64,000 bases of DNA from an uncultured delta proteobacterium (lineage in GTDB: Bacteria > Desulfobacterota > Binatia > UBA9968). The stretch covers positions 1 to 64,000 of the forward strand of contig CAWJBB010000068.1 of the NCBI GenBank assembly GCA_963840855.1, written 5' to 3'. Both the position numbers and the translations under genes were made by a program. Positions 1,565 to 31,184 of this stretch are shown piece by piece (the first letter of the stretch is position 1; each line of letters opens with the position of its first letter). The notes under the pieces were generated by a model. That model was not told where the DNA came from. It did not search any database and was given only the letters and a program-made list of their open reading frames with translations.

Positions 1565-1700
1565 TTACAAATGCACACGGGCATCCAACCGCGGGCGCTC
1601 ATCAACGGCAATATCAATTTTTTTCCTTCGCTATCCACGGGAATTTCGGCGGCGGTCGGCGGGCTAGCAAAAAGACCCGAATAAGGTCGGGAGAAACTTG

Positions 1701-2717
1701 ATGAAGACGTTGGCACGATGCTTTCTGGTCATTTTCTTTTCAGGCTTGTTCCCCGTTGCCGGCTGGCCGCAGGGAGGCCTGGATTCAACGCTGATTGATG
1801 GCGCAAAAAAGGAAAAACGTTTAGTTCATTGGACGACGATGACTCTAAGCCAGAGCAAGCAGGTCGTGGATGCTTTTCAAAAGAAATATCCTTTCATTGA
1901 GATGGATCTTTTTCGCACCGGCGGTGACGCGATGCTCAACAAAATTTTCACTGAGGATCGCGCCGGCAAGCACCTATGGGATGTGATCCTTACGAGAGGG
2001 GACATGTTTCTTCCCTTGATGAAGAGAAAGCTCCTGGCCTCTTATCGCTCTCCCGAGACCAAGAAAATTCCCGCGGATCTTTTCGATAAGAACGGCTATT
2101 GGACTGGGTACTACGTCAACCCTTACACCTTGGGGTACAACACCAAATGGGTCAAGAATGAAGAGGTGCCCAAAACCTATGAGGAGCTGCTCAGCCCCAA
2201 ATGGAAAGGGCAAAAGATATCCGTTGATAATACATCCTATAACCTGCTTGCGGGTCTCATCACCGCCTGGGGTAAAGACAAGGCCATTGCTTACTTCAAG
2301 AAACTTGCCGCCCAGGAGCCATCCGTCATGCGCGGTGACACCAACAGAGTCCAGCTCACCGCGGCCGGAGAATTCCCGCTAATTATTTCCTTCGCGCCGA
2401 TTATTCAGCGGGCGACTTCCGAGGGTGCGCCCATTGATTGGGTTCCTCTGGAGCCGGTTTCGGTGCAGATCAATCCTTTGTTGCTTGGAGCCAAGTCTGC
2501 TCACCCCAACGCGGCCAAACTTTTCATAGACTTCGTGCTTTCAGAAGAGGGACAAAAACAGCTGGTTGGCCTCAGCCGGATACCGGTCCGTGAAGATGTG
2601 AAGCCTCAGCCAGCCCGACTATTCGGGGGATACAAGCGGATCGTGGAAAACCCGGGAGAGTATGAAAATTTCTCCGAGGTCATAAGACTTTATCAAGAGA
2701 TTTTCAACGTGCGTTGA
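1701..2717 (+). CDS. extracellular solute-binding protein (Fe3+/thiamine/AfuA-like class)
   Basis: Signal peptide; LIDGAKKE, GYNT, PKTYEELL-x-PKWKG, HPNAAKLFIDFVLSEEGQ motifs. Confidence 0.9.
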   Translation: MKTLARCFLVIFFSGLFPVAGWPQGGLDSTLIDGAKKEKRLVHWTTMTLSQSKQVVDAFQKKYPFIEMDLFRTGGDAMLNKIFTEDRAGKHLWDVILTRGDMFLPLMKRKLLASYRSPETKKIPADLFDKNGYWTGYYVNPYTLGYNTKWVKNEEVPKTYEELLSPKWKGQKISVDNTSYNLLAGLITAWGKDKAIAYFKKLAAQEPSVMRGDTNRVQLTAAGEFPLIISFAPIIQRATSEGAPIDWVPLEPVSVQINPLLLGAKSAHPNAAKLFIDFVLSEEGQKQLVGLSRIPVREDVKPQPARLFGGYKRIVENPGEYENFSEVIRLYQEIFNVR

Positions 2718-2752
2718 TTGCTCCCGCCTCAAATCGTCGAGATGAGACCTCT

Positions 2753-4144
2753 ATGACCACCGTCATTCATCACACCACCATCGTGACTGGAGATCGGGAC
2801 CCGTCCATTCACCTCAATGCCGCTATTGCCATCGAGAACGACCTGATCACGGCCATTGGTCCGAGCGACGAGGTCATGTTGCGTTTTCCGAACGCAGAGG
2901 GCGTCGATGGGCGAGGCAAGCTGGTCATGCCTGGTTTCGCCAACTGTCACACGCACTTTGTTAGAATCCTTGCGCGTGGGATCTTCGAAGATCAAAACGC
3001 CCCTAACCGGCCTCCTTTCACTCGCAAAGGGCGGGTTCCATTTCCACCGCTGAACCCGGAACAACGCGCGGCCATGGCTCGCCTTGGCGTGCTCGAGGCT
3101 CTGCGCAGCGGCACCACCGCTGCCATGGATATCACGAACAACATCGAGGACTACGCTGAAACCATCGTCGCAACCGGACTCCGTCTTGTCTTGGCCGAAC
3201 AAGTATCGGACCGAGCCAAGGGAGTTCGTGTCGGCGAGCCAGGCGTCTTCGAAGCCGATCCGGAACTCGCCGACAAGGGCTTACAGCGGATTTTTGATCT
3301 TCACGCCAAGTGGCACGGCGCGGCAGACGGCCGCATCACCGTCGCGGTCGCGGCCCACGCTCCGGACATGGTTTCCCCGGCGCTCTTGCAAAGGTTGCGC
3401 GATTTGCGGGAAAAACTCGACACCATCGCCACCATCCACCTGAATCAGTATTGGGGCGAAGTAGAGGTGATCAAGACCAGCTACGGAACGCTTCCCACGG
3501 AATACTTGGCTCGCCATGGATTTCTCAATGAACGGCTCGTTGCTGCTCACTGCCGGTGCATGACGCCGGAAGAAGAAAAAATTCTCGGGGCTTCGGGAGC
3601 TTCAGTCAGCTTCAATCCGGTGGTCGCGGCGCGTTCGGGGAACAGTCCGCGCATTACGGACTTGGAGACCTCTGGCTGCAGGATCGCACTGGGCACCGAC
3701 GAATTTACCGAGGACATGGTGCAGGTGTTGCGCAGCGCGGTGCTGATCGAGCGGTTGCGTCTGAAAGAGGGTGATCGCCCGAGACCCGAGGACGCGATGC
3801 TTTGGGGGACGGTTAACGGCTACCGTGCCTTGAACTTAAAAGGCTGCGGATTCTTGCAGGTTGGCAGCAAGGCGGACTTGATCGTCGTAAGCACACGACA
3901 CGCTCATCTGGTCCCGACGTTACGCCCCGTTGCCGTTTTCGTGTACCAAGGGCAGGCTCACGACGTGGAATCGGTCATGGTCGACGGACGCTGGCTGCTG
4001 CGAGATGGCAAAGTGCTGGCGATGGACGAGGAAGAGGTCATTCGTGAGGCGGATCGCGTGAGCCGGGAAATCTGGCTCGGTTACTTCAAGGACCATCCTG
4101 ATCTGGAGATGCCCGAGGGCTTCGACTCCGGTTTTGCCGGTTAA
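2753..4144 (+). CDS. metal-dependent amidohydrolase (MTA/SAH deaminase-AtzA/TrzA-like clade)
   Basis: PGFANCHTH metal motif, HAPD, AAHC, ALGTD, GSKADL, VMVDG. Confidence 0.88.
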   Translation: MTTVIHHTTIVTGDRDPSIHLNAAIAIENDLITAIGPSDEVMLRFPNAEGVDGRGKLVMPGFANCHTHFVRILARGIFEDQNAPNRPPFTRKGRVPFPPLNPEQRAAMARLGVLEALRSGTTAAMDITNNIEDYAETIVATGLRLVLAEQVSDRAKGVRVGEPGVFEADPELADKGLQRIFDLHAKWHGAADGRITVAVAAHAPDMVSPALLQRLRDLREKLDTIATIHLNQYWGEVEVIKTSYGTLPTEYLARHGFLNERLVAAHCRCMTPEEEKILGASGASVSFNPVVAARSGNSPRITDLETSGCRIALGTDEFTEDMVQVLRSAVLIERLRLKEGDRPRPEDAMLWGTVNGYRALNLKGCGFLQVGSKADLIVVSTRHAHLVPTLRPVAVFVYQGQAHDVESVMVDGRWLLRDGKVLAMDEEEVIREADRVSREIWLGYFKDHPDLEMPEGFDSGFAG

Positions 4145-4226
4145 GCGGCAGGTCCAAATCTTTCTTTATGCCCTCAACAGTCGCCAAAATGAGTCACAAG
4201 CAATAAATCCCCTAAGGAGATGAACC

Positions 4227-4421
4227 ATGGCAGATGACACCCATCAACCATCCGAGGAGGAAGTCACCCTGATGCTAAAGCGTGCGGGTCTCACGCTCCC
4301 GCCCGAGCAGTTGGAGAGGTGTTGCGCCGTGGTCGCAAGACTTGAGGCAGCGGCGCGCCGGCTGCGAAGGGATCTTAAACGCGCCGACGAGCCGGCCAGT
4401 GTCTTTCCTGTTCGGAGATAG
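4227..4421 (+). CDS. small AtzG/GatC-like amidase partner protein (64 aa)
   Basis: AAGGAG RBS; AGLTLP helix and C-terminal EPASVF; ends 5 bp before an amidase. Confidence 0.72.
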   Translation: MADDTHQPSEEEVTLMLKRAGLTLPPEQLERCCAVVARLEAAARRLRRDLKRADEPASVFPVRR

Positions 4422-4426
4422 AATCC

Positions 4427-5827
4427 ATGACTGGCGAACTCTGCTACCTATCCATCGCTGAAACCGGGCCGCTCTTGAAATCGCAACAATTGTCGCCGGT
4501 GGAATTAACCAACGCTTTCCTTGAGCGCATCGAAGCAATCGACTCTCGGATTCATAGTTTCGTCTTAGTGACTCGCGAAGAAGCGCTGCGCCAAGCCAAG
4601 GCAGCCGAGAGAGAAATTGCCTCGAACCGGTATCGCGGCCCGATGCATGGCATACCGATCGGTTTGAAAGATCTAATCGAAACTGCTGGCATACGAACTA
4701 CAGCCCATTCGAAGGTTCTCATTGATTATATTCCCGCCGAGGACGCGACAGCCGTGAGCCGCCTTAAAGATTCCGGCGCAGTCTTTTTGGGTAAGCTCGG
4801 TTGTTTAGAGTTTGCTCATGGCAGCCCTTCTCCGGACCAGGCTTGGCCGCCGGTACGGAACCCGTGGAACCCGGAGCATGGATTTACCGGCGGTTCGAGC
4901 ACGGGCTCGGCGGCCGCTGTGGCCGCTGGATTGGTGATGGGAGCACTGGGGACGGACACCGGCGGATCTATTCGCAACCCGGCTTCTTTCTGCGGCATCG
5001 CCGGGCTCATGCCGACCTATGGAAGGGTCAGCCGAAAAGGTGTGATCCCTTACTCTTTCTCCCTCGATCACTGCGGGCCGATGGCTTGGACTGCTGAGGA
5101 CTGCGCGATCATGCTTCAGGCGATTGCCGGCTATGACCGGGACGATCCCGGCAGTGCCAATCTTCCTGTACCCGATTATACCACCGCTCTGAACATGGGA
5201 ATTCACGGAATGCGGATCGGTGTTATCCGCCATTTTTATGAATCGCGCTTGCCTCCCGAAGACGAAACGCGGCGCGCATTCGAAGCCGCGTTACAAGAAC
5301 TTACGAAACTGGGCGCGCTGCTCGAGGAAGTGAAACTCCGAGAACTGGAAGATTACGACGACTGTAAGGTGATTATTTCCGAGGCGGAATTTTTTGCCGT
5401 CCACGAAAAGGACCTGCTCGAAAGATTTCAAGATTACGGTGCCAACCTGCGCTTTCGCGCCGTCCCCGGCGGGCTCATCCGGGCGGTCGACTACATCCAG
5501 GCTCAACGTCAGCGCGCCAAATTGGTCGCTGAGATGCGGACGCTATTTACGGGCTATGACGCTATGGTAACGCTTTGCACCTACGGTCCGGCGCCGAAAG
5601 TCGGCACGGACGAACCGACCCATTTTTTTCAACGGCCAAACCTGACCGCGGTCTTCAACGTAACCGGCAACCCGGCGATTTCCATCCGCACCGGATTTGA
5701 TCGGATGGGCCTGCCACTCGCCATGCAAATCGCCGGCAAAGTCTTTGACGAAGCAACGATCCTGCGCATCGCGCATGCCTATGAGCAAGCAACGCCGTGG
5801 CGCCGTCTCCGTCCCTCCCTGGTCTAG
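4427..5827 (+). CDS. amidase signature family protein (GatA/AtzE-like)
   Basis: [33 protein letters not shown] (Lys-cisSer-Ser triad). Confidence 0.93.
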
Positions 5828-5875
5828 CTGGAGGCGGGCTTTACTGGGAACGGTTCCGCACGATGAGATTTTCTC

Positions 5876-6649
5876 TCATTTGGCGAAGGCGGTGAAATCT
5901 TCGTAACGAAGTTTCGCGAGGGGATAATTCAAAGCGCTTTGGGTCATTCCCAGCCGGACGCACATCTCGGCAAATTGAATACCGATGGCTTTCGTGTTCA
6001 GGACTGGCACGCCCACTTCTCGTTCTAGGTCCATGGGAGAAACAAGGGTTGGAATAACCGCGCCGCCGAGCGGAATGATGCACCCCGCGCCGCTCGTTTT
6101 GATGGTGGCGCGCATGACCTCGGTGGCACGGGCAAATATGGCGTCTATTCGCTTCTCTGCGGTTTCATCATACAGGCCGATTGCCGCAATATCTTTAACA
6201 AACCCCTGCATGCCGTAGGAGTAAACAATCTGCCATGCGTATGCGATGTGCTCTTCGAGAGGCACAATGATCGCGATAGAGTTGGAGAGAACCGAGGCCG
6301 CGTGAAGTGCCGTGCGAAATACGCCAATGACGGGGATGCGCACCGTCTGACGAGCCGCTTCCACGCCCGGGTCAAATGTATTGCTCTGAACAACGGCATC
6401 GTAACCGTTATTCTCGGCCCAAACGATCTTTCGAATAATCGCCGGCGTTTGCAGCACGTGGTAAATTCCGGGGACTTCGTTTCGCGCGCCGAGATTCAAA
6501 GAAAGCTTCGCTCCCGGGTAATCGTCCGGAAAGCATAACTCGACTTGAGTACCCGCGGAGGCGTAACCGTCGAGTTGGGCTTGGATCCTGACATATCTCC
6601 CTTTAGCATTGGGGTTCTCGGGCAGATGGCTGAGGAACATGATTCGCAT
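5876..6649 (-). CDS. Asp/Glu/hydantoin racemase-fold protein lacking both catalytic Cys
   Basis: GYDAVVQSNTFDPGVEAAR-x3-RIPVIG and GVPVLN; paralog of 29166-29939. Confidence 0.85.
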   Translation of the reverse strand: MRIMFLSHLPENPNAKGRYVRIQAQLDGYASAGTQVELCFPDDYPGAKLSLNLGARNEVPGIYHVLQTPAIIRKIVWAENNGYDAVVQSNTFDPGVEAARQTVRIPVIGVFRTALHAASVLSNSIAIIVPLEEHIAYAWQIVYSYGMQGFVKDIAAIGLYDETAEKRIDAIFARATEVMRATIKTSGAGCIIPLGGAVIPTLVSPMDLEREVGVPVLNTKAIGIQFAEMCVRLGMTQSALNYPLAKLRYEDFTAFAK

Positions 6650-10657: not shown

Positions 10658-10803
10658 ATGACACCTCCTGGAAACGCTTCTGGTCAATCTGGCGATTGCT
10701 AGCGCAACCCGGAGTTCCAAAATCAAAGGGCCTCTGGATTCCGTTTCCCGTTTCCACGGGAATGACGGACTCGGAGCCAACAGCGAACTTTGGTTCCAGA
10801 ATA

Positions 10804-11091
10804 CTAGTTTCTGTCTTCGTGCTCCAGCGCGCTCAGCCATTCTTCATGCACGTCCACCCAGATAGAATCTGTGTCGTGGCAGGTTGACAGTTCGCTCAGA
10901 TCAAACCGCACCGCGTAAAGCGGTTTGTGTATGCCACGGTGGTCTCTGATGTTTTCCAGAACACCGTGGACCAAGCCGATAACGCCGCGTTTGCCTCGGA
11001 TGTACTTCGGCGTGCGCGGGTTGCCTTTGGGGTTTTCGGATGCAACCACGACGGGGTCGCCGATTTTGAATTTACTGTCCATTGATTCCAT
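10804..11091 (-). CDS. stand-alone SH3-like subunit (NHase beta C-terminal domain / thiocyanate hydrolase ScnA-like)
   Basis: KFKIGDPV, PRTPKYIRGKRGVI, PLYAVRF, VDVHEEWL. Confidence 0.85.
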   Translation of the reverse strand: MESMDSKFKIGDPVVVASENPKGNPRTPKYIRGKRGVIGLVHGVLENIRDHRGIHKPLYAVRFDLSELSTCHDTDSIWVDVHEEWLSALEHEDRN

Positions 11092-11117
11092 GACTCTAAT
11101 AAACGAAGCCACTTCGC

Positions 11118-11203
11118 GGGCGGGGTTTTAACCCCGCCCTTGACCAAAGGGATGCTCGCCCCCTTTGGAAACCCCATAATTTTGTTGCCGCCTCAAGAGG
11201 CGG
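11118..11203. repeat. cluster of three perfect short inverted repeats
   Basis: GGGCGGGGTT/AACCCCGCCC, CCAAAGGG/CCCTTTGG, CCGCCTC/GAGGCGG. Confidence 0.7.
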
Positions 11204-11216
11204 GGTATACATGGAG

Positions 11217-12290
11217 TCAATCCGGCCGCACTCTCGGCATTTCGGGCGTCGCTCCCGACTTTTCCACTTCACTCAACTGCCGAGGTTCCAGAGCGTAGCC
11301 GGCGCCAATCAAACTATCGGCGGTGACGAGCTTCGCCAACTCTTCCTCCGACATGCCCTCGGTACCGGCGGGCCGTTGCGGCAGTACGAAGTAACGCACG
11401 TCCGAGGTGCTGTCGTAAACCTGGACCTCTTTGTTCACGGGAACTTTCAAGTCAAACATCTCTTCCAGGGTCGCCCGGGGATTCTGGACAATCTTGGTTC
11501 GGTAGCTCTCGTGCTTGTACCACCATGGTGTGTCACCGAGAATGTCGTAGGGATAACAAGAGCAAAGTGTGCAAACGACGACGTTATGAACCTTGTCGCT
11601 ATTCTCCACAACGACTAACTTGCCGACTTTCCCCTGGTGCACGCCCATTTCTCGAAGCGCCTCGCGGCCGGTGGATAACAGCTCCTGCTTGAACGCTGGA
11701 TTGGTCCACGCCTTGGCAACGATCGTGCCGCCGGCCCAGGGACGCTCTTCATGGAGCTGCTTCCAACGCTGCTCCAACTCCGCGCGATTCGACCAACCGC
11801 GTTTGATCAGCGCTTGAACGAATACTTCGAGCAACTCCTGGTAGTCTTTTAAGTCCTGTTCCAGGTTCACCATGCGTTCTTGAAGGGTGCCGTGGTGTTC
11901 CTTCTTTTTGATTTTGAAAAAGTCGTCATAGTCACCGCGCTCCTTGCGATTGTCTTCGGTCACCATGTCCATGGATTCGACGGCGCGCGCCGAGACCAGG
12001 GCGATGCCTTTCACGTACTCATCGAGCCACTCTTCCAGGTAGCGCACGCGGGCTTCGATATTCTTTCCCTGGGGTTTCTTGATGTTGAAAAACTGAGTTT
12101 TCTTTTTGAGCGCCGTTCGGGCCTTGAGCAGATCATAGAACGTCACAACGCCGCGCCGCAGTAAATAGATAATGCGCGGCTCGAATCGTTTTGCTCGGTA
12201 GTATTCCAGGTCTTCTTCGACAGCCTTGATGTGCGCTTCATAATCGTGCATGTGACCTTCAAATGGCTTGTGCTTGTGATTTCCCGGCAT
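11217..12290 (-). CDS. Co-type nitrile hydratase alpha / thiocyanate hydrolase gamma-like subunit with long N-terminal extension
   Basis: VAKAWTNPAFK, HNVVVCTLCSCYP, PWWYKHESYR, DSTSDVRYFVLPQRPAGTEG; GGAGG RBS. Confidence 0.92.
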   Translation of the reverse strand: MPGNHKHKPFEGHMHDYEAHIKAVEEDLEYYRAKRFEPRIIYLLRRGVVTFYDLLKARTALKKKTQFFNIKKPQGKNIEARVRYLEEWLDEYVKGIALVSARAVESMDMVTEDNRKERGDYDDFFKIKKKEHHGTLQERMVNLEQDLKDYQELLEVFVQALIKRGWSNRAELEQRWKQLHEERPWAGGTIVAKAWTNPAFKQELLSTGREALREMGVHQGKVGKLVVVENSDKVHNVVVCTLCSCYPYDILGDTPWWYKHESYRTKIVQNPRATLEEMFDLKVPVNKEVQVYDSTSDVRYFVLPQRPAGTEGMSEEELAKLVTADSLIGAGYALEPRQLSEVEKSGATPEMPRVRPD

Positions 12291-12325: not shown

Positions 12326-14041
12326 TCAGTGAGTGTTAAAAACTTCCCGGTATTGATCGAGCTTTGCTTCGACGGCCTTGACCTCATCCGGCGTTGGCTT
12401 CGCCGGATCAACCGCCGGCGGCAGGGCACCGAATTTCATCAAGCAAGCCATGAGCAGCAACCGCGCTTTTGTGGAAGTGAGATTGCTCCCTGCGATCGAT
12501 AGCGGATTACGGGCCTGCTCCACGAACCCGGCGGCATTGCCCCTGCCGACTTTCACGAAGGGCATGCCGCAAAACGTCGCGCGCTTCAGAGCCGCGTCGA
12601 CAGAATTGCTCATCGCGCCGAAGGGGGCAGAGCCTTCGGCGACGAAACCGGCCAGCGGCGCCTGGCGCAGATTGTTTTCAATGCGCGCGAGGATATCGAT
12701 TTCCGCCGCCGCGTCGCCGGAGTGATCCTCGGGCAGATAACGCGCATGCTTGACGATCGTGACCTTTGGAATCGCGGCCGGAAGCAAATTACCGTCAGCA
12801 TCTTTGATCGGCACCACTACGGTTCCGATCCTTGAACCTTGAACCCTTGAACCTTGAACTTCGTTGGGCAACTGCGTGAGATTTACCGCTGAATTGTAGG
12901 TATGCCGCTTGATCGTCTTGAACGTGAACTGCGGCGGGCCGGGATGGCCGATGCGTCCAATGATGCCGCCGTGCCCACCGGTAGCGATATAACCGCCGGG
13001 CCGCGCGTCGGCTTTTTGCACGTCGCGGGCGGTAAAAATCTGTTCATCGAGGATGGCGACTGCACCGATCGAGTCGCGCCCGCTTTCGTCGGCCCAAATT
13101 CGCGACGTGATGTAATCCACGGAATCGACGATATTCCGGTCGCCGTCATTGCCCACAGCGCCGTGGGGTCGTTGAGATGAATTACCAACAATGGGCACGA
13201 TAGTATCGATAAGCAAGTTGAGCCAATAGCTGGTTTCTTCGACAAACGGACTGCCTTCGAGCCAAATCGCCCCGGCATACTGACCGTCACGCAGAGCTTG
13301 CTGCACGACGTTGGTCAACTTCGCCAGCGTCGCCATCGGCGGCTCCTTGCGCAAATGATTGGGCCGGTAAGGAAAAAAATCCCTGCCGTGAACTTCCGGC
13401 GCGATGTCGCCTCGCCCCACGTCCGTGCGCAGCGCTGCGGCGAGCCCTTTTACATACCCGCCGGACGGCGCGGCCCGATAGAAATCAAAATCAGCTTTTG
13501 AAGACAACGAGCAGCCCACGCCGCTGTCGGCAATTCCCAACCGGTCGATTTCTTCGAAGAGACGCGAGCCGTCCGGGAAAAACGGTACACGAGTGCGCTC
13601 AGACGGCGCGCCTTTTTCAGTGGCGTCTTCCTCCCACGCCTCGCCGGCGGCCTGCCGCGCCATGTAAGGCAACGGATAGAGACCGTCTTCGGGCTTCAGT
13701 GTTACTTCGTAGACAGGTCTGTCAGTGGGACTTGTCCGCTCCTTGTGAAAAACCCCGGCGGCGTCGAGATAACCGTCGGGCGGCGCATAAAGCTCGGCGG
13801 CGTCGCGTTCAAGCGGATGAGCGCTAAATTGCTCGACATAGACGGTCACCGGCGCGGCCAGGCGCTGGGGGCGCAAAACGTCGAAACGCATTGGCGTGCC
13901 GTCCGCATTCATGCGCAAGGACAGGCCGTACTTCTCGCGCGCTTTGTTGCTGGTAACGAGCGGTTCACTGTTTTGAATTGTGGCCGTCGGACCGGAGAAA
14001 ACCGCGATGCGGGGTTTACCGTGAGTTACTGCATTTGCCAC
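12326..14041 (-). CDS. asparaginase-fold protein, atypical active-site motifs
   Basis: SGPTATIQ, EGSPFVEETSYWL, SSQRP, DGDRN, ARDVQK, NLTSTKARLLL; GTG start with GGAG RBS. Confidence 0.8.
   Translation of the reverse strand: MANAVTHGKPRIAVFSGPTATIQNSEPLVTSNKAREKYGLSLRMNADGTPMRFDVLRPQRLAAPVTVYVEQFSAHPLERDAAELYAPPDGYLDAAGVFHKERTSPTDRPVYEVTLKPEDGLYPLPYMARQAAGEAWEEDATEKGAPSERTRVPFFPDGSRLFEEIDRLGIADSGVGCSLSSKADFDFYRAAPSGGYVKGLAAALRTDVGRGDIAPEVHGRDFFPYRPNHLRKEPPMATLAKLTNVVQQALRDGQYAGAIWLEGSPFVEETSYWLNLLIDTIVPIVGNSSQRPHGAVGNDGDRNIVDSVDYITSRIWADESGRDSIGAVAILDEQIFTARDVQKADARPGGYIATGGHGGIIGRIGHPGPPQFTFKTIKRHTYNSAVNLTQLPNEVQGSRVQGSRIGTVVVPIKDADGNLLPAAIPKVTIVKHARYLPEDHSGDAAAEIDILARIENNLRQAPLAGFVAEGSAPFGAMSNSVDAALKRATFCGMPFVKVGRGNAAGFVEQARNPLSIAGSNLTSTKARLLLMACLMKFGALPPAVDPAKPTPDEVKAVEAKLDQYREVFNTH
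12830..12859. repeat. perfect 15-bp tandem duplication inside a CDS (VQGSR x2)
   Basis: CCTTGAACCTTGAAC x2. Confidence 0.85.
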
Positions 14042-14174
14042 AAAAATCTCCAAGAGCGAGGATTATTTTGTCGTAGCGACGCAGCGTCCGCTAACGGACG
14101 GCATCACCCGCGGATGATGCCGCGCCCTGCGTCGCGCCAACGGGAAACCGAACGACGTTCGGCGTCCAAAGCAA

Positions 14175-14744
14175 TTATTTCAGCTCGTGGGGGAGCTGCG
14201 TAGGCCCGTAACCCTGCCAGTACTTGTTGGTCGCGGGATCGTAGCGGCCCTGCAAAAATCCGCCGGCCTTTTCCGCGCGAACGATGATCGCCACCGTGCG
14301 CTCATCGCCGCTTTCTTCGGCGTGAATTTCATAAGGCGGCACCAAATCGATCATTCCGGCGCCGACTTTGACGTTAACCGTCTTACGGATTTCGGCATAG
14401 TCGGGTTTGGACCGATCGTCCACGCGCTCATAGCGTTCAATGTTCTCATTGCCGTCGAGCACCCCGTAAAGAGTCCAATTGTGCGCGTGGTCATGAATCG
14501 CCGTGCGTGTGTGAGGCGCCTTGATCAGGCCGTTGATAACAAACTTGTAGTCCGGATCCTCATAGAAGAGTAAGTTCTCGGCGCGCTCACCGCCCTGGGA
14601 GCAATCCGGCCAGCTTCTCGATTGCTCTTGCACCGACGGATCGGTCAATAACTCCTGAAGGTGCGGCGTCATTTTCTCCCAGCGTTTCGCTGCGTCTTTC
14701 TCTTCGGCGTGAAGGCTGCGGGCGGACGCGATAAATTTTTGCAC
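14175..14744 (-). CDS. cysteine/thiol dioxygenase-like cupin
   Basis: TAIHDH-x3-W-x2-YGVLDG-x-E, ERY, EIHAE (3-His site). Confidence 0.75.
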   Translation of the reverse strand: MQKFIASARSLHAEEKDAAKRWEKMTPHLQELLTDPSVQEQSRSWPDCSQGGERAENLLFYEDPDYKFVINGLIKAPHTRTAIHDHAHNWTLYGVLDGNENIERYERVDDRSKPDYAEIRKTVNVKVGAGMIDLVPPYEIHAEESGDERTVAIIVRAEKAGGFLQGRYDPATNKYWQGYGPTQLPHELK

Positions 14745-29165: not shown

Positions 29166-29939
29166 GTGAAGATCATGTTTTTGAATCATTCTTTCCAGCG
29201 CCATTCGGCCGAATTGGAAGTCCATATCAGGAAGCTGCTCAAGAGCTACGCTTCGCCCGGTACTGAGTTTGAGCTTGCCTATCCTGAAGACCTCGGCGGC
29301 GGCGAGGTGCTGAGCTTACTGGAAGAACGCAAAGCACTATCGGGCCTGCATCACATTCTCGAAACCCCGGCCCTGGTCAAAAAAGCCATCGAGGCCGAAC
29401 AAAAGGGCTTCGACGCAGTGATCCAGAGCAATACCTTCGATCCCGGCGTCGAAGCCAGCCGGTTGGCCGTGCGCATCCCGGTTATTGGCATGCTGCGCGC
29501 GTCGCTCCATTTCGCCGCCAGTATTTGCGAGCGCTTTGGACTCATCGTGCCGCTGGAAACCCACATGCCGTACACCCAGCGACTGGTGCAGACTTACGGC
29601 ATGACGCCGTTCGTATGCGGTATCCGGACCGTCGGCCTTTACGACACCGGTGATTTATCCGGCTATCATGATGTCATCATCGAGCGCACCCTGGCAATCG
29701 GCAAAGAACTAGTCGAGCAAGGCGCCCAGGCACTGATTCCCCTGGGCGGAAAGATTTATCCATACGTGGTCACGCCCGAAGAGTTGGAGCCCCATCTCGG
29801 CGTGCCGGTGATCAATACCAAAGCGGTGGGCGTGAGCTACGCCGAGCTGATGGCGCGGTCAAAAATCAGCCACAGCATTAAAGCGTATCCATGTCCAACC
29901 GGTTTGAGTCCGGAGGCCGTGTCGCAACGCGCCAAGTGA
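29166..29939 (+). CDS. Asp/Glu/hydantoin racemase-fold protein lacking both catalytic Cys
   Basis: GFDAVIQSNTFDPGVEASR, LIPLGG, GVPVINTKA; AAGGAG RBS. Confidence 0.87.
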   Translation: MKIMFLNHSFQRHSAELEVHIRKLLKSYASPGTEFELAYPEDLGGGEVLSLLEERKALSGLHHILETPALVKKAIEAEQKGFDAVIQSNTFDPGVEASRLAVRIPVIGMLRASLHFAASICERFGLIVPLETHMPYTQRLVQTYGMTPFVCGIRTVGLYDTGDLSGYHDVIIERTLAIGKELVEQGAQALIPLGGKIYPYVVTPEELEPHLGVPVINTKAVGVSYAELMARSKISHSIKAYPCPTGLSPEAVSQRAK

Positions 29940-29952
29940 CAGGCCAAAAGCC

Positions 29953-30035
29953 TGTCATCCCGAGCGAATGCGAGGGATCTAGGCAAGATTTCTCTCGGAG
30001 TTTATCCTGAGTCCCTCGAAGGGTTCCAAATGACA
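29953..30035. repeat. REP-like palindromic element (TGTCAT...ATGACA)
   Basis: TGTCATCCCGAGCGAATGCGAGGGATCT ... AGATTTCTC ... AAATGACA. Confidence 0.7.
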
Positions 30036-30089
30036 ATGCTTTTCCTTTGCGATCTTTGTGGTTAAAGAAATTTAATCGAGGTTCACGCC

Positions 30090-31184
30090 ATGATCATCGA
30101 TGCCGACGGGCACTGGTTTGAAACCGAAGAAGTATTTAGCAAATACATGGAGCCGCATCTCCGCAACTATCGTCCAAGGCTGCTGAGCGACGAGCAGGGA
30201 TTTAATTTCTGGGTGGTTGACGGCCAGACAGCCTACAAGCGGCCATCGATCAAAGGCGCTGGCGCGCCCGGCACCGCAGCCCCTCCGGGGAAAGCGATTC
30301 AGTCCGCGCGCCGCGCAACGCCGGGCAGCCAAACGCTAACGAGTTTAAAAGAGCGGCTCAACGATCTCGATAACGAGGCCATCGACATGCAGTTTCTCTA
30401 TCCGAGCTTTCTTCTCCATGTGAATGCATGGCCCGATGGCATTCTCGCCAACGGCGTATGCCGCGCTTATAACACCTGGCTCGCGGAAGTTTGCAACCAG
30501 GCGCCCGACCGGCTCAAAGGCGTGGGTGTTGTTTCGTTACAGGACTCCAAGGGCGCGGCCAAAGAACTTGCCCGCATAGTCGAACTTGGCATGACCGGCG
30601 TGATGATCAACGGCACCGCCGGGGCCAAACGACTGGATCATCCCGACCATGAACCATTTTTTGCCGAAGCAGACAGATTGAAGATGCCGATTGCCGTTCA
30701 TTTCAGTCTTCAGTTTCCCGTGGTCGATAGCCTGTTCGAGCATCATTTTCCCAACCGCGTGCTCGCGGGCATCTTACCGATCATGGCCGGGCTCACCAGC
30801 GTTCTGTGCTCGGGATTGCTGGACCGTTACAAGAATCTCAAGTTCGCCTTTCTCGAAGGCGGCATCAGTTGGGTCCCCGCCCATGTGGAAAGAATGGACG
30901 ACCATTTCGAGAATCCGCGCTACGGCGCCAAGGATTTGATCAGCCATCCCCCTAGCGATTATTTGAAGTCGGGGCGGATCTTCTTTGGCTGCGAAGGCAA
31001 CGAGCCTTTCCTTGGCCGCGTCGTCGAGGAATTGGGCGAAGACTCGTTCATGTATTCTTCCGATTATCCCCACGCCGACCGGACCGAAGGGACAGCCAAA
31101 TTACTCAGGGACCGGACCGATATCCCGCCTCAATCCCGGAAAAAGCTCCTAGAGGACAATGCCCGGCGCTTTTATGCTCTTTGA
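30090..31184 (+). CDS. amidohydrolase_2 family protein (ACMSD/LigW-like)
   Basis: IIDADGH, CRAYNTWL, FLEGGISW, YSSDYPH. Confidence 0.9.
   Translation: MIIDADGHWFETEEVFSKYMEPHLRNYRPRLLSDEQGFNFWVVDGQTAYKRPSIKGAGAPGTAAPPGKAIQSARRATPGSQTLTSLKERLNDLDNEAIDMQFLYPSFLLHVNAWPDGILANGVCRAYNTWLAEVCNQAPDRLKGVGVVSLQDSKGAAKELARIVELGMTGVMINGTAGAKRLDHPDHEPFFAEADRLKMPIAVHFSLQFPVVDSLFEHHFPNRVLAGILPIMAGLTSVLCSGLLDRYKNLKFAFLEGGISWVPAHVERMDDHFENPRYGAKDLISHPPSDYLKSGRIFFGCEGNEPFLGRVVEELGEDSFMYSSDYPHADRTEGTAKLLRDRTDIPPQSRKKLLEDNARRFYAL

What the first reader, a model, noticed from the sequence alone, without database searches (positions are those of the whole stretch)
10804..12290. Nitrile/thiocyanate hydratase with a new subunit architecture
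Seen: a 357-aa protein with the intact Co-type CTLCSC motif, preceded by three ~60-aa related units (YEAHIKAVEEDLEYY, IEARVRYLEEWLDEY, LQERMVNLEQDLKDY; FFNIKK/FFKIKK; LLRRGVV/LIKRGWS) and a His-rich start. It is followed only by a free ~95-aa SH3-like subunit retaining R-x-P-x-Y-x-RG. Established: NHase needs a full beta subunit and SCNase needs ScnA+ScnB+ScnC; the helical beta/ScnB part supplies a conserved Arg, and activator proteins are usual. No beta-N/ScnB, activator or cobalt transporter gene is adjacent. Inference: the triplicated arm replaces the beta N-domain and/or the activator, giving a two-gene enzyme type.
Basis: partly seen in the sequence, partly recalled or inferred. Interest (0 to 1): 0.82.

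Follow-up and report, generated by a model that had tools for sequence, protein, structure and literature searches.

The report
Two-gene nitrile hydratase, new alpha extension
A group of soil bacteria (Binatia) carries a nitrile-hydratase-type enzyme built from only two genes, in which the catalytic subunit has a conserved 145-residue helical extension where the usual partner subunit has lost its front half.

Summary
Window 11217-12290 (-) encodes a 357-aa protein. Residues ~146-357 are a cobalt-type nitrile hydratase (NHase) alpha subunit with an intact CTLCSC site. Residues 1-145 are a helical extension that matches no Pfam family. A free ~95-aa NHase beta C-terminal domain (betaC) follows.

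The pair is a conserved module:
- betaC follows the alpha gene in 50 of 50 related loci that hold enough downstream DNA.
- The extension is under purifying selection as strong as the catalytic core (dN/dS 0.03-0.10).
- It was found in two families of one order, in 22 of 301 genomes of the class.

The extension is not a recognisable beta N-terminal domain (betaN): hhalign gives 2.8%, Foldseek finds nothing, and VIA-align gives only weak hits at Z 3.9-4.9. Its three units resemble one another at profile level. Its only invariant residues (R115, E117, G119, Y121) lie in a loop. A predicted complex packs its helices onto the alpha N-terminal arm.

The window's genome does hold a betaN, but inside a separate and complete three-gene NHase operon. 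Four of 18 genomes that carry the extension show no betaN above the Pfam cut-off; one of them is 98% complete in 7 contigs.

Best reading (about 0.55): the extension replaces betaN. This is a new variant of a known enzyme kind. Activity, substrate and the role of R115 are untested.

The parts
11217..12290 (-). Gene for the 357-aa extended NHase alpha subunit (extension plus alpha)
   Evidence: ORF; Pfam NHase_alpha at residues 153-330, E 3.4e-64; closest solved chains are Co-type NHase alpha, E 5e-57 to 1e-48; RBS GGAGG before the ATG at 12290.
11856..12290 (-). N-terminal extension, residues 1-145: His-rich start, then helices 17-45, 51-60 and 78-105, a loop, and the start of helix 136-163
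   Evidence: No Pfam family. Family-specific: 101 representatives among 1.84 billion proteins, none a canonical beta. AF2 pLDDT is 80-93 in the helices. dN/dS is 0.03-0.10.
11919..11981 (-). Loop of residues 104-124, which holds the extension's invariant residues R115, E117, G119, Y121 (D113 nearly invariant)
   Evidence: Invariant in the 24-row alignment A2 and the 17-row alignment A4. pLDDT is below 50 in both monomer models. Proposed active-site loop; this is inference.
11220..11855 (-). Canonical alpha part, residues 146-357: N-terminal arm plus catalytic domain
   Evidence: hhalign of unit 3 against canonical alpha arms gives Prob 98%, E 3e-13, starting near residue 146. Foldseek to NHase alpha chains gives E 4e-14, TM(target) 0.73.
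11556..11573 (-). Metal-binding motif C240-T-L-C243-S244-C245
   Evidence: C240, C243, S244 and C245 are invariant in A2. Reading the Thr / following-Tyr context (VCTLCSCY) as the cobalt-type signature is recalled knowledge.
10804..11091 (-). Gene for the free betaC subunit (95 aa from the ATG at 11091; the ORF is open from the GTG at 11112)
   Evidence: Pfam NHase_beta_C, E 8.2e-15. Invariant R33 in NPRTP.Y.RG. Follows the alpha gene in 50 of 50 loci with room.
11095..11215 (-). About 120-nt hairpin-rich dispersed repeat that fills the alpha-betaC spacer; not part of the enzyme
   Evidence: 23 matches in the own genome, about 10 near full length at 79-93% identity. RNA fold -54.6 kcal/mol, z -4.0. 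Absent from loci where the alpha and betaC genes abut.

Best explanation
This is a cobalt-type nitrile-hydratase-family hydratase made from two gene products: a 357-aa extended alpha and a ~95-aa betaC.

Proposed mechanism. The alpha core binds the metal through C240/C243/S244/C245. BetaC supplies its conserved Arg (R33), as in ordinary NHases. The 145-residue extension forms a helical bundle with the alpha subunit's own N-terminal arm. It thereby takes the structural place of the missing betaN, and its invariant loop (D113-x-R115-x-E117-x-G119-x-Y121) reaches the active site to supply the second Arg and the Tyr that betaN normally provides. The extension most likely arose by repeated duplication of the alpha N-terminal module (His-rich stretch plus helix), not by fusion of a beta gene. 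The conserved His-rich segments may help load cobalt without a separate activator.

Shown: the architecture, its conservation, purifying selection, independence from the genomic presence of betaN, and the predicted packing.
Inferred: the catalytic role of the loop, the origin by duplication, activator independence, and the substrate.
For: 1. Domains: NHase_alpha plus an unassigned 145-aa N-terminus, and betaC alone.
2. Module conservation: 61 related loci in species-representative genomes. BetaC lies within 700 nt after the alpha gene in 50 of the 50 loci with >=700 nt of downstream DNA, and in 3 of the 11 shorter ones. In the divergent clade (extension 45-59% identical) only this pair is kept while the neighbours change.
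3. Constraint: among the pairs with unsaturated dS, dN/dS is 0.026-0.102 for the extension and 0.052-0.104 for the core. The least saturated pair, L009, gives 0.063 against 0.089.
4. Invariant residues: in the extension the only invariant positions in A2 are R115, E117, G119 and Y121; they stay invariant in A4, which adds the f113 sequences.
5. Genomes without betaN. G779 (7.1 Mb, 7 contigs, 98% complete) has one NHase alpha (the extended one), one betaC, and no PF21006 match at E<=1. Of the 18 extension-positive genomes of family f1 seen in both, 14 have betaN above the cut-off. G735, G779 and G799 have none at E<=0.1, and G663 has only a 14.8-bit hit. Completeness of these four is 95-98%. 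G589 and G655 (1 and 2 contigs) have betaN only as a weak match fused into another alpha.
6. Predicted packing: with the extension (1-135) as a separate chain against alpha 136-357 plus betaC, the score is 0.76 and the best of 3 controls 0.00. This mark was reached by 116 of 157 solved complexes and 2 of 215 mismatched pairs. Runs agree in >=55% of contacts and the partner's pLDDT is >=61. The confident interface is extension 17-99 with alpha 136-180. The job used my own alignments and three chains, unlike the calibration. The two parts are halves of one polypeptide, but no solved structure resembles the extension.
7. Independent folding: residues 1-185 fold alone with pTM 0.74.
8. Weak family-specific structural echo: three NHase/SCNase beta chains aligned over their N-domains are in the top 25 of 48,161 chains. 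These are 4fm4_B (Z 4.9, rmsd 5.8, 80 aligned), 2dd4_B (Z 4.5, rmsd 7.4, 88) and 3qxe_B (Z 3.9, rmsd 5.2, 77).
9. Marginal profile alignment: extension 92-117 falls on the helix-loop-Arg segment of the betaN::alpha fusions, with R115 on their conserved Arg (score 17.2 against shuffles 10.4+-2.3, reached by 0 of 50; Prob only 3.5%).
10. Unit similarity and His-rich leaders before the units.
Against: - No activity data exist. No model places the R115 loop: pLDDT is below 50, and the complex model shows no confident contact of the extension with betaC or the catalytic domain.
- Profile and fold searches do not show equivalence to betaN: hhalign Prob 2.8% and no Foldseek match. The VIA-align Z values of 3.9-4.9 lie in the range the tool itself calls common for helical bundles.
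- Most carriers (14 of 18 in family f1, and the window's own genome) do encode a betaN elsewhere, so use in trans is not excluded for them.
- The four genomes without betaN are 95-98% complete, not closed.
- TIGR01323 (NHase alpha equivalog) scores 211.1 bits, under its cut-off of 249.85.
- The unit-duplication signal is modest, and shuffling does not control for helical periodicity.
Confidence: 0.55

Rival explanations
1. The extension has no catalytic role. It is a built-in maturation or assembly device: a metallochaperone or 'self-subunit-swapping' surrogate that uses its His-rich stretches, or an oligomerisation bundle. The alpha-betaC core would then work with a single active-site Arg from betaC.
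For: The His-rich start and the conserved HMHD.EAH are present. Family f113 has a His-rich linker (EEEHNHEHDHKHEE). No activator gene lies at the locus. The confident predicted contacts involve only the alpha arm, not the active site.
Against: The extension's only invariant residues are not histidines. They are an R-x-E-x-G-x-Y loop, which a metal-delivery or packing role does not explain. The review reports that the His linker of eukaryotic fused NHases is not needed for metal insertion (PMC7193024, passage read). That both beta arginines matter in canonical enzymes is recalled knowledge.
Confidence: 0.15
2. The enzyme still needs a betaN in trans, borrowed from the three-gene NHase operon found elsewhere in most of these genomes. 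The extension would be an accessory.
For: The window's genome has a free 103-110-aa betaN on contig C3. Fourteen of 18 extension-positive f1 genomes have betaN above the cut-off.
Against: Each such betaN sits in a complete betaN-betaC-alpha operon, or a beta-alpha(-activator) operon, of its own. G779, G735 and G799 have none and G663 only a sub-threshold hit. G589 and G655 have betaN only fused to another alpha. The extension packs on the alpha arm; that betaN binds the alpha arm in canonical enzymes is recalled knowledge.
Confidence: 0.1
3. It is not a nitrile hydratase in function. The same metal site would serve another reaction (thiocyanate or another small C-N / C-S substrate), or the protein would be a non-enzymatic relic.
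For: It scores below the NHase alpha equivalog cut-off. In 38 of the 53 loci with >=2500 nt upstream, the neighbours are a thiol-dioxygenase-like cupin and an atypical asparaginase-fold protein, which hints at an unusual substrate.
Against: All four metal-site residues and the betaC Arg are invariant, and selection is strongly purifying. Sequence is much closer to NHase alpha than to SCNase gamma: 211 against 146 bits, and PDB E 5e-57 against 8e-35. Contigs at 93-99% identity to the extension occur in RNA libraries of 3 studies (X8, X12, X13), with more divergent pieces in a fourth (X14); this is not proof of transcription.
Confidence: 0.1

Closest known systems
Canonical cobalt-type NHase (alpha2beta2; e.g. 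Pseudonocardia thermophila 1IRE, Bacillus sp. RAPc8 2DPP)
   Same: The alpha core is 45-52% identical over ~176-190 alignment columns and has the same fold, the same CTLCSC site, and a betaC domain with the conserved Arg.
   Different: There is no betaN. The alpha subunit carries a 145-aa family-specific N-terminal bundle. No P14K-type activator gene lies at the locus.
Three-subunit relatives: toyocamycin NHase, (alpha-beta-gamma)2 with subunits of 21.2, 10 and 11.4 kDa (PMC8574189, passages read), and thiocyanate hydrolase (review PMC7193024)
   Same: The beta subunit is split, so a free ~10-kDa betaC-type subunit exists. The window's genome has such an operon on contig C3.
   Different: Those enzymes keep betaN as a third free subunit. 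Here no betaN gene belongs to the module, and alpha is extended instead.
Eukaryotic beta-alpha fusion NHase (Monosiga brevicollis and others; PMC2603476 abstract, PMC7193024 passages)
   Same: Extra sequence lies N-terminal to alpha, with His-rich segments and no known activator.
   Different: The eukaryotic fusion holds a whole recognisable beta. Here the extension is not recognisable as beta (hhalign Prob 2.8%), and betaC stays a separate gene.
BetaC plus betaN::alpha fusion found here in sister genomes (L074, L084, L085; alpha of 305-318 aa)
   Same: It is also a two-gene layout with a free betaC, in the same order of bacteria. It sits side by side with the extended type in G589, G655 and G405.
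   Different: Its N-terminal part is a true betaN (hhalign Prob 92%, E 5e-7), and the gene order is betaC then alpha. I found no description of this type either; it was not searched for separately.

Membership tests
NHase alpha subunit (Pfam PF02979) | Domain match above the gathering score | tested here: met
   216.1 bits against a cut-off of 27.2, residues 153-330.
NHase alpha subunit (NCBIfam TIGR01323 equivalog) | Score above the equivalog cut-off | tested here: not met
   211.1 bits against a cut-off of 249.85.
NHase alpha subunit | Metal-binding C-(T/S)-L-C-S-C motif intact | tested here: met
   VCTLCSCYP is present; C240, C243, S244 and C245 are invariant in 24 rows.
Canonical two-subunit NHase | Full-length beta (betaN plus betaC) encoded with alpha | tested here: not met
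   Only PF02211 is adjacent. PF21006 finds nothing on contig C68 at E<=1.
Canonical two-subunit NHase | Two beta arginines at the oxidised cysteines (recalled: betaArg52/157 in Co-type, 56/141 in Fe-type) | tested here: inconclusive
   The betaC Arg (R33) is present and invariant. A candidate for the second is R115 of the extension, supported only by invariance and a marginal alignment.
NHase beta C-terminal domain (PF02211) | Domain match above the gathering score | tested here: met
   55.5 bits against a cut-off of 27.7.
Thiocyanate hydrolase (TIGR03887 gamma; three subunits) | Equivalog score and a separate betaN-type subunit at the locus | tested here: not met
   145.7 bits against a cut-off of 291.45. 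No third subunit gene was seen in the divergent-clade loci whose ORFs were listed, and only betaC follows alpha in the 50 loci with room.
Toyocamycin-NHase-like three-subunit enzymes | Free betaN gene in the operon | tested here: not met
   Absent at this locus. Present only in the separate operon on contig C3.
Beta-alpha fusion NHase | N-terminal part recognisable as NHase beta | tested here: not met
   No Pfam match. hhalign of the extension against betaN gives Prob 2.8%, against 92% for the true fusion used as positive control.
Beta-alpha fusion NHase | Fold of the N-terminal part like betaN | tested here: inconclusive
   VIA-align gives Z 3.9-4.9 to three beta chains within the top 25. Foldseek gives none.
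NHase (EC 4.2.1.84) | Hydration of nitriles to amides; oxidised Cys ligands | not testable with these tools
   Needs expression, assay and mass spectrometry.

The most novel reading that the evidence does not exclude
The alpha subunit triplicated its own N-terminal module (His-rich leader plus helix) and evolved a new loop carrying Arg115 and Tyr121. In this way it re-invented the lost half of the beta subunit. The result would be a self-sufficient, activator-free cobalt hydratase of two small genes, a third and independent solution beside the split-beta and betaN::alpha-fusion enzymes of the same bacteria.
Probability: 0.3. Interest if true: 0.7.

Novelty: new variant of a known kind. Interest (0 to 1): 0.55.

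Why it matters
NHases are industrial catalysts (acrylamide, nicotinamide). Their need for a full beta subunit and a dedicated activator complicates expression and engineering. A natural enzyme that replaces half of beta with an unrelated-looking extension of alpha would show which parts of beta are truly required for catalysis and maturation. It would also give a compact two-gene scaffold. One bacterial order would then hold four NHase layouts side by side: canonical, three-subunit, betaN::alpha fusion, and extended alpha. That makes it a natural experiment in subunit evolution. The conserved neighbours (thiol-dioxygenase-like cupin, atypical asparaginase-fold protein) suggest an unknown physiological nitrile in soil Binatia.

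Tried and rejected
- PF27793.1 is listed for about half of the near-identical homologues, but it is not in the local Pfam copy. I could not learn what it is. Its patchy presence among proteins >85% identical suggests a borderline hit rather than a family built for this extension; that is inference.
- ESM Atlas search with residues 1-145: no usable hit.
- Earlier findings of this scan, searched by sequence: nothing.
- Foldseek of the 1-185 model against PDB: no match at E<=0.001, and no NHase beta chain in the rows shown.
- BLASTP of the extension against the contig C3 betaN: E 1.0.
- hhalign of the loop alone (residues 104-136) against betaN: nothing.
- The complex model names no confident contact of the extension with betaC or with alpha beyond residue 180. 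The tool states that unnamed residues are uncertain, so this does not speak against contact.
- RNA runs: parts of the stretch without cover (betaC, 10760-11077) say nothing. All data were contigs, so no expression level, strand or transcript ends can be read. Many contigs touching 11098-11220 run on into unlike sequence, which the dispersed repeat explains.
- Literature: 'nitrile hydratase' + 'Binatia' gave 0 papers. 'nitrile hydratase' + fused / beta subunit / N-terminal extension (130 papers held at least 3 of the 4 terms, 15 listed) showed none describing this layout. 'nitrile hydratase' + 'sequence similarity network' (29 papers, 12 listed) returned mostly RiPP papers. Subscription journals and supplements were not seen.
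- Sampling the phylum at large gave 1 of 401 genomes, the window's own. This reflects sampling, not absence.
Full report
**What is there.**

The minus strand of the window holds a 357-aa ORF (11217-12290) and, after a 104-125-nt spacer, a 95-102-aa ORF (10804-11091/11112).
- Pfam assigns residues 153-330 of the first to NHase_alpha (E 3.4e-64) and the second to NHase_beta_C only (E 8.2e-15). Residues 1-152 get no family.
- NCBIfam puts the large protein nearer to NHase alpha (211.1 bits, below the equivalog cut-off of 249.85) than to thiocyanate hydrolase gamma (145.7 bits).
- The closest solved chains are cobalt-type NHase alpha subunits, and none covers the extension.
- The alpha ATG is preceded by GGAGG.

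**The canonical part starts near residue 146.**

A profile of the third 'unit' aligns with canonical alpha N-terminal arms from residue ~146 on (Prob 98%, E 3e-13). The true extension is therefore about 145 residues.

AF2 with a 24-row alignment gives confident helices at 17-45, 51-60, 78-105 and 136-163, and a low-confidence loop at 103-124. Residues 1-185 fold alone with pTM 0.74 into the same helices.

**Is the extension a hidden betaN? Not recognisably.**
- PF21006 finds nothing on this contig at E<=1.
- hhalign of the extension profile against a betaN profile gives Prob 2.8%. The positive control, the N-terminal part of the betaN::alpha fusions found in sister genomes, gives Prob 92%, E 5e-7.
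- Foldseek returns only alpha chains for the whole model and nothing for the 1-185 model.
- VIA-align over 48,161 chains has a top Z of 6.2. Three NHase-family beta chains, aligned over their N-domains, are in the top 25: 4fm4_B (Z 4.9, rmsd 5.8, 80 aligned), 2dd4_B (Z 4.5, rmsd 7.4, 88) and 3qxe_B (Z 3.9, rmsd 5.2, 77). These values are within the range the tool calls common for helical bundles, so I count this as a hint only.
- A local profile alignment puts extension residues 92-117 on the helix-loop-Arg segment of the fusions, with R115 on their conserved Arg. The score is 17.2 against shuffles of 10.4+-2.3 (reached by 0 of 50), but Prob is only 3.5%.
- PF21006 positions 65-102 also give weak hits on the N-terminal arms of ordinary alpha subunits in many genomes. 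The alpha arm and the last betaN helix therefore resemble each other, which may explain both weak signals.

**Internal repeats.**

The three units are related at profile level beyond composition:

| Pair | Prob | Score | Shuffles reaching it |
|---|---|---|---|
| u2-u3 | 67% | 25.7 | 0 of 150 |
| u1-u3 | 29% | 21.4 | 0 of 150 |
| u1-u2 | 10% | 17.95 | 1 of 150 |

Each unit begins with His-containing residues followed by an E-x-R-h-x-x-L-E-x-x-L-x-x-Y helix. In family f113 a His-rich stretch precedes unit 2 as well. Canonical alpha subunits of these genomes also start with a His-rich leader before the arm. Duplication of the alpha N-terminal module is therefore the simplest origin, but the evidence is modest.

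**Conservation.**
- The extension's family is small and specific: 488 clusters at 90% identity, and 101 representatives at 50% identity among 1.84 billion proteins. Many of these are fragments, and none is a canonical beta.
- Sixty-one loci were found in species-representative genomes, mostly labelled Binatia or 'delta proteobacterium' MAGs.
- BetaC follows within 700 nt in 50 of the 50 loci with at least 700 nt downstream, and in 3 of the 11 shorter ones.
- In 38 of the 53 loci with >=2500 nt upstream, a thiol-dioxygenase-like cupin and a 575-aa asparaginase-fold protein precede the pair. In the divergent clade only the pair is kept.
- Within the class, 22 of 301 sampled genomes have the extension: 18 of 25 in family f1 (plus the window's own genome), 3 of 3 in f113, and 0 of 272 in the other 18 families sampled.
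- dN/dS of the extension is 0.026-0.102, no higher than the core's 0.052-0.104 (pairs with saturated dS left out).
- The only invariant extension residues in the 24-row alignment are R115, E117, G119 and Y121.

**Is a betaN needed from elsewhere?**

The window's genome has one, on contig C3, inside a complete betaN (103-110 aa) - betaC (101 aa) - alpha (228 aa) operon. That layout matches toyocamycin NHase, whose subunit sizes I read in PMC8574189.

Other carriers have canonical beta-alpha-activator operons, three-gene operons, or a betaC plus betaN::alpha fusion.

However, G779 (7.1 Mb, 7 contigs, 98% complete, 4% contamination) has a single NHase alpha (the extended one), a single betaC, and no PF21006 match at E<=1. 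Across the 18 extension-positive f1 genomes seen:
- 14 have betaN above the cut-off;
- three have none at E<=0.1 (G735, G779, G799);
- one has only a 14.8-bit hit (G663).

The overall tally (46 of 61) includes two unpublished genomes, and I do not rely on it.

**Where the extension sits.**

I handed the extension (1-135) to the complex predictor as a separate chain, against alpha 136-357 and betaC.
- Score 0.76, best of 3 controls 0.00. The mark was reached by 116 of 157 solved complexes and 2 of 215 mismatched pairs.
- Runs agree in at least 55% of contacts, and the partner's pLDDT is at least 61.
- The confident interface is extension 17-99 with alpha 136-180, the alpha arm.
- Caveats: I used my own alignments and three chains, and the two parts are halves of one polypeptide. 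No solved structure resembles the extension, so a pass from memory is unlikely.
- The loop with R115/Y121 is not placed.

**Reading.**

From recalled knowledge of NHase structures, betaN packs on the alpha arm and supplies one of two arginines and a tyrosine at the oxidised cysteines. On that basis the most economical model is that the extension's bundle replaces the betaN scaffold and its invariant loop supplies those residues. This is inference, and the rivals are listed separately.

No activator or cobalt-transporter family was found among the 55 ORFs scanned in the window. The conserved His-rich segments may therefore serve metal loading, but the review notes that the His linker of eukaryotic fusions is dispensable (PMC7193024).

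**Comparison and novelty.**

The 2020 review lists six NHase gene organisations: alpha-beta-activator, beta-alpha-activator, SCNase alpha-beta-gamma-activator, alpha-AnhE-beta, the eukaryotic beta-alpha fusion, and solo subunit (passages read). Extended alpha plus betaC is not among them. My three literature searches found no description of it. Public annotations call these proteins simply 'nitrile hydratase subunit alpha'.

I rate it a new variant of a known kind. It is of real interest to NHase enzymology and subunit evolution, and of moderate general interest.

**Expression.**

Contigs at about 93-99% identity to parts of the extension (up to 268 nt) occur in metatranscriptome libraries of three studies (X8, X12, X13). 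More divergent pieces of the alpha gene occur in a fourth (X14). DNA carry-over cannot be excluded.

Noticed in passing
window 11095-11215 (-): The alpha-betaC spacer is filled by a ~120-nt hairpin-rich dispersed repeat. It has 23 matches in the own genome, about 10 near full length at 79-93% identity; the RNA fold is -54.6 kcal/mol, z -4.0. Metatranscriptome contigs touch it and then run on into unrelated sequence. In many related loci the two genes abut, so this looks like a lineage-specific REP/MITE-like insertion.
   Followed up: partly
own genome contig C3 (L001: 1507-1839, 1217-1522, 559-1245, all -): A second NHase operon of the three-subunit type: betaN 103-110 aa, betaC 101 aa, alpha 228 aa, with overlapping genes. 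The same operon recurs in many genomes of the family.
   Followed up: partly
L074 874-2127 (-); L084 1128-2319 (+); L085 1145-2346 (+): Another two-gene NHase layout in sister genomes: a free betaC (87-105 aa) followed by an alpha of 305-318 aa. The N-terminal ~100 residues of that alpha are a true but divergent betaN with a His-rich start (hhalign Prob 92%). I did not see this bacterial betaN::alpha fusion with a free betaC described.
   Followed up: partly
window 14175-14744 (-) and 12326-14053 (-): Conserved upstream neighbours in 38 of 53 loci. One is a 189-aa cupin whose closest solved relative is mercaptosuccinate dioxygenase (8vni, E 1.8e-8), followed by cysteine-dioxygenase types. The other is a 575-aa asparaginase-fold protein in which the HGTDT catalytic motif aligns with EGSPF. 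Together they may define the pathway around the hydratase.
   Followed up: partly
window 1698-6649 and 29166-31184: The neighbourhood is rich in amide and amino-acid chemistry. It holds an amidase-signature enzyme (4427-5827 +), an Amidohydro_1 protein (2714-4144 +), two Asp/Glu/hydantoin racemase-family genes (5876-6649 -, 29166-29939 +), an Amidohydro_2 protein (30090-31184 +) and several solute-binding proteins.
   Followed up: no
homologues P0001, P0003 and others: A precomputed Pfam accession, PF27793.1, is attached to roughly half of the near-identical homologues. It is missing from the local Pfam copy, so its identity could not be checked.
   Followed up: partly
many genomes of family f1: The betaN model PF21006 (positions 65-102) gives weak hits (E 1e-4 to 0.1) on the N-terminal arm of ordinary alpha subunits. 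This suggests that the alpha arm and the last betaN helix are distant relatives.
   Followed up: no
L064 9057-9485 (+): In one divergent locus a 142-aa ORF lies between the alpha and betaC genes. From its sequence alone I took it for an acetyltransferase-like protein. It is not seen in the other loci.
   Followed up: no
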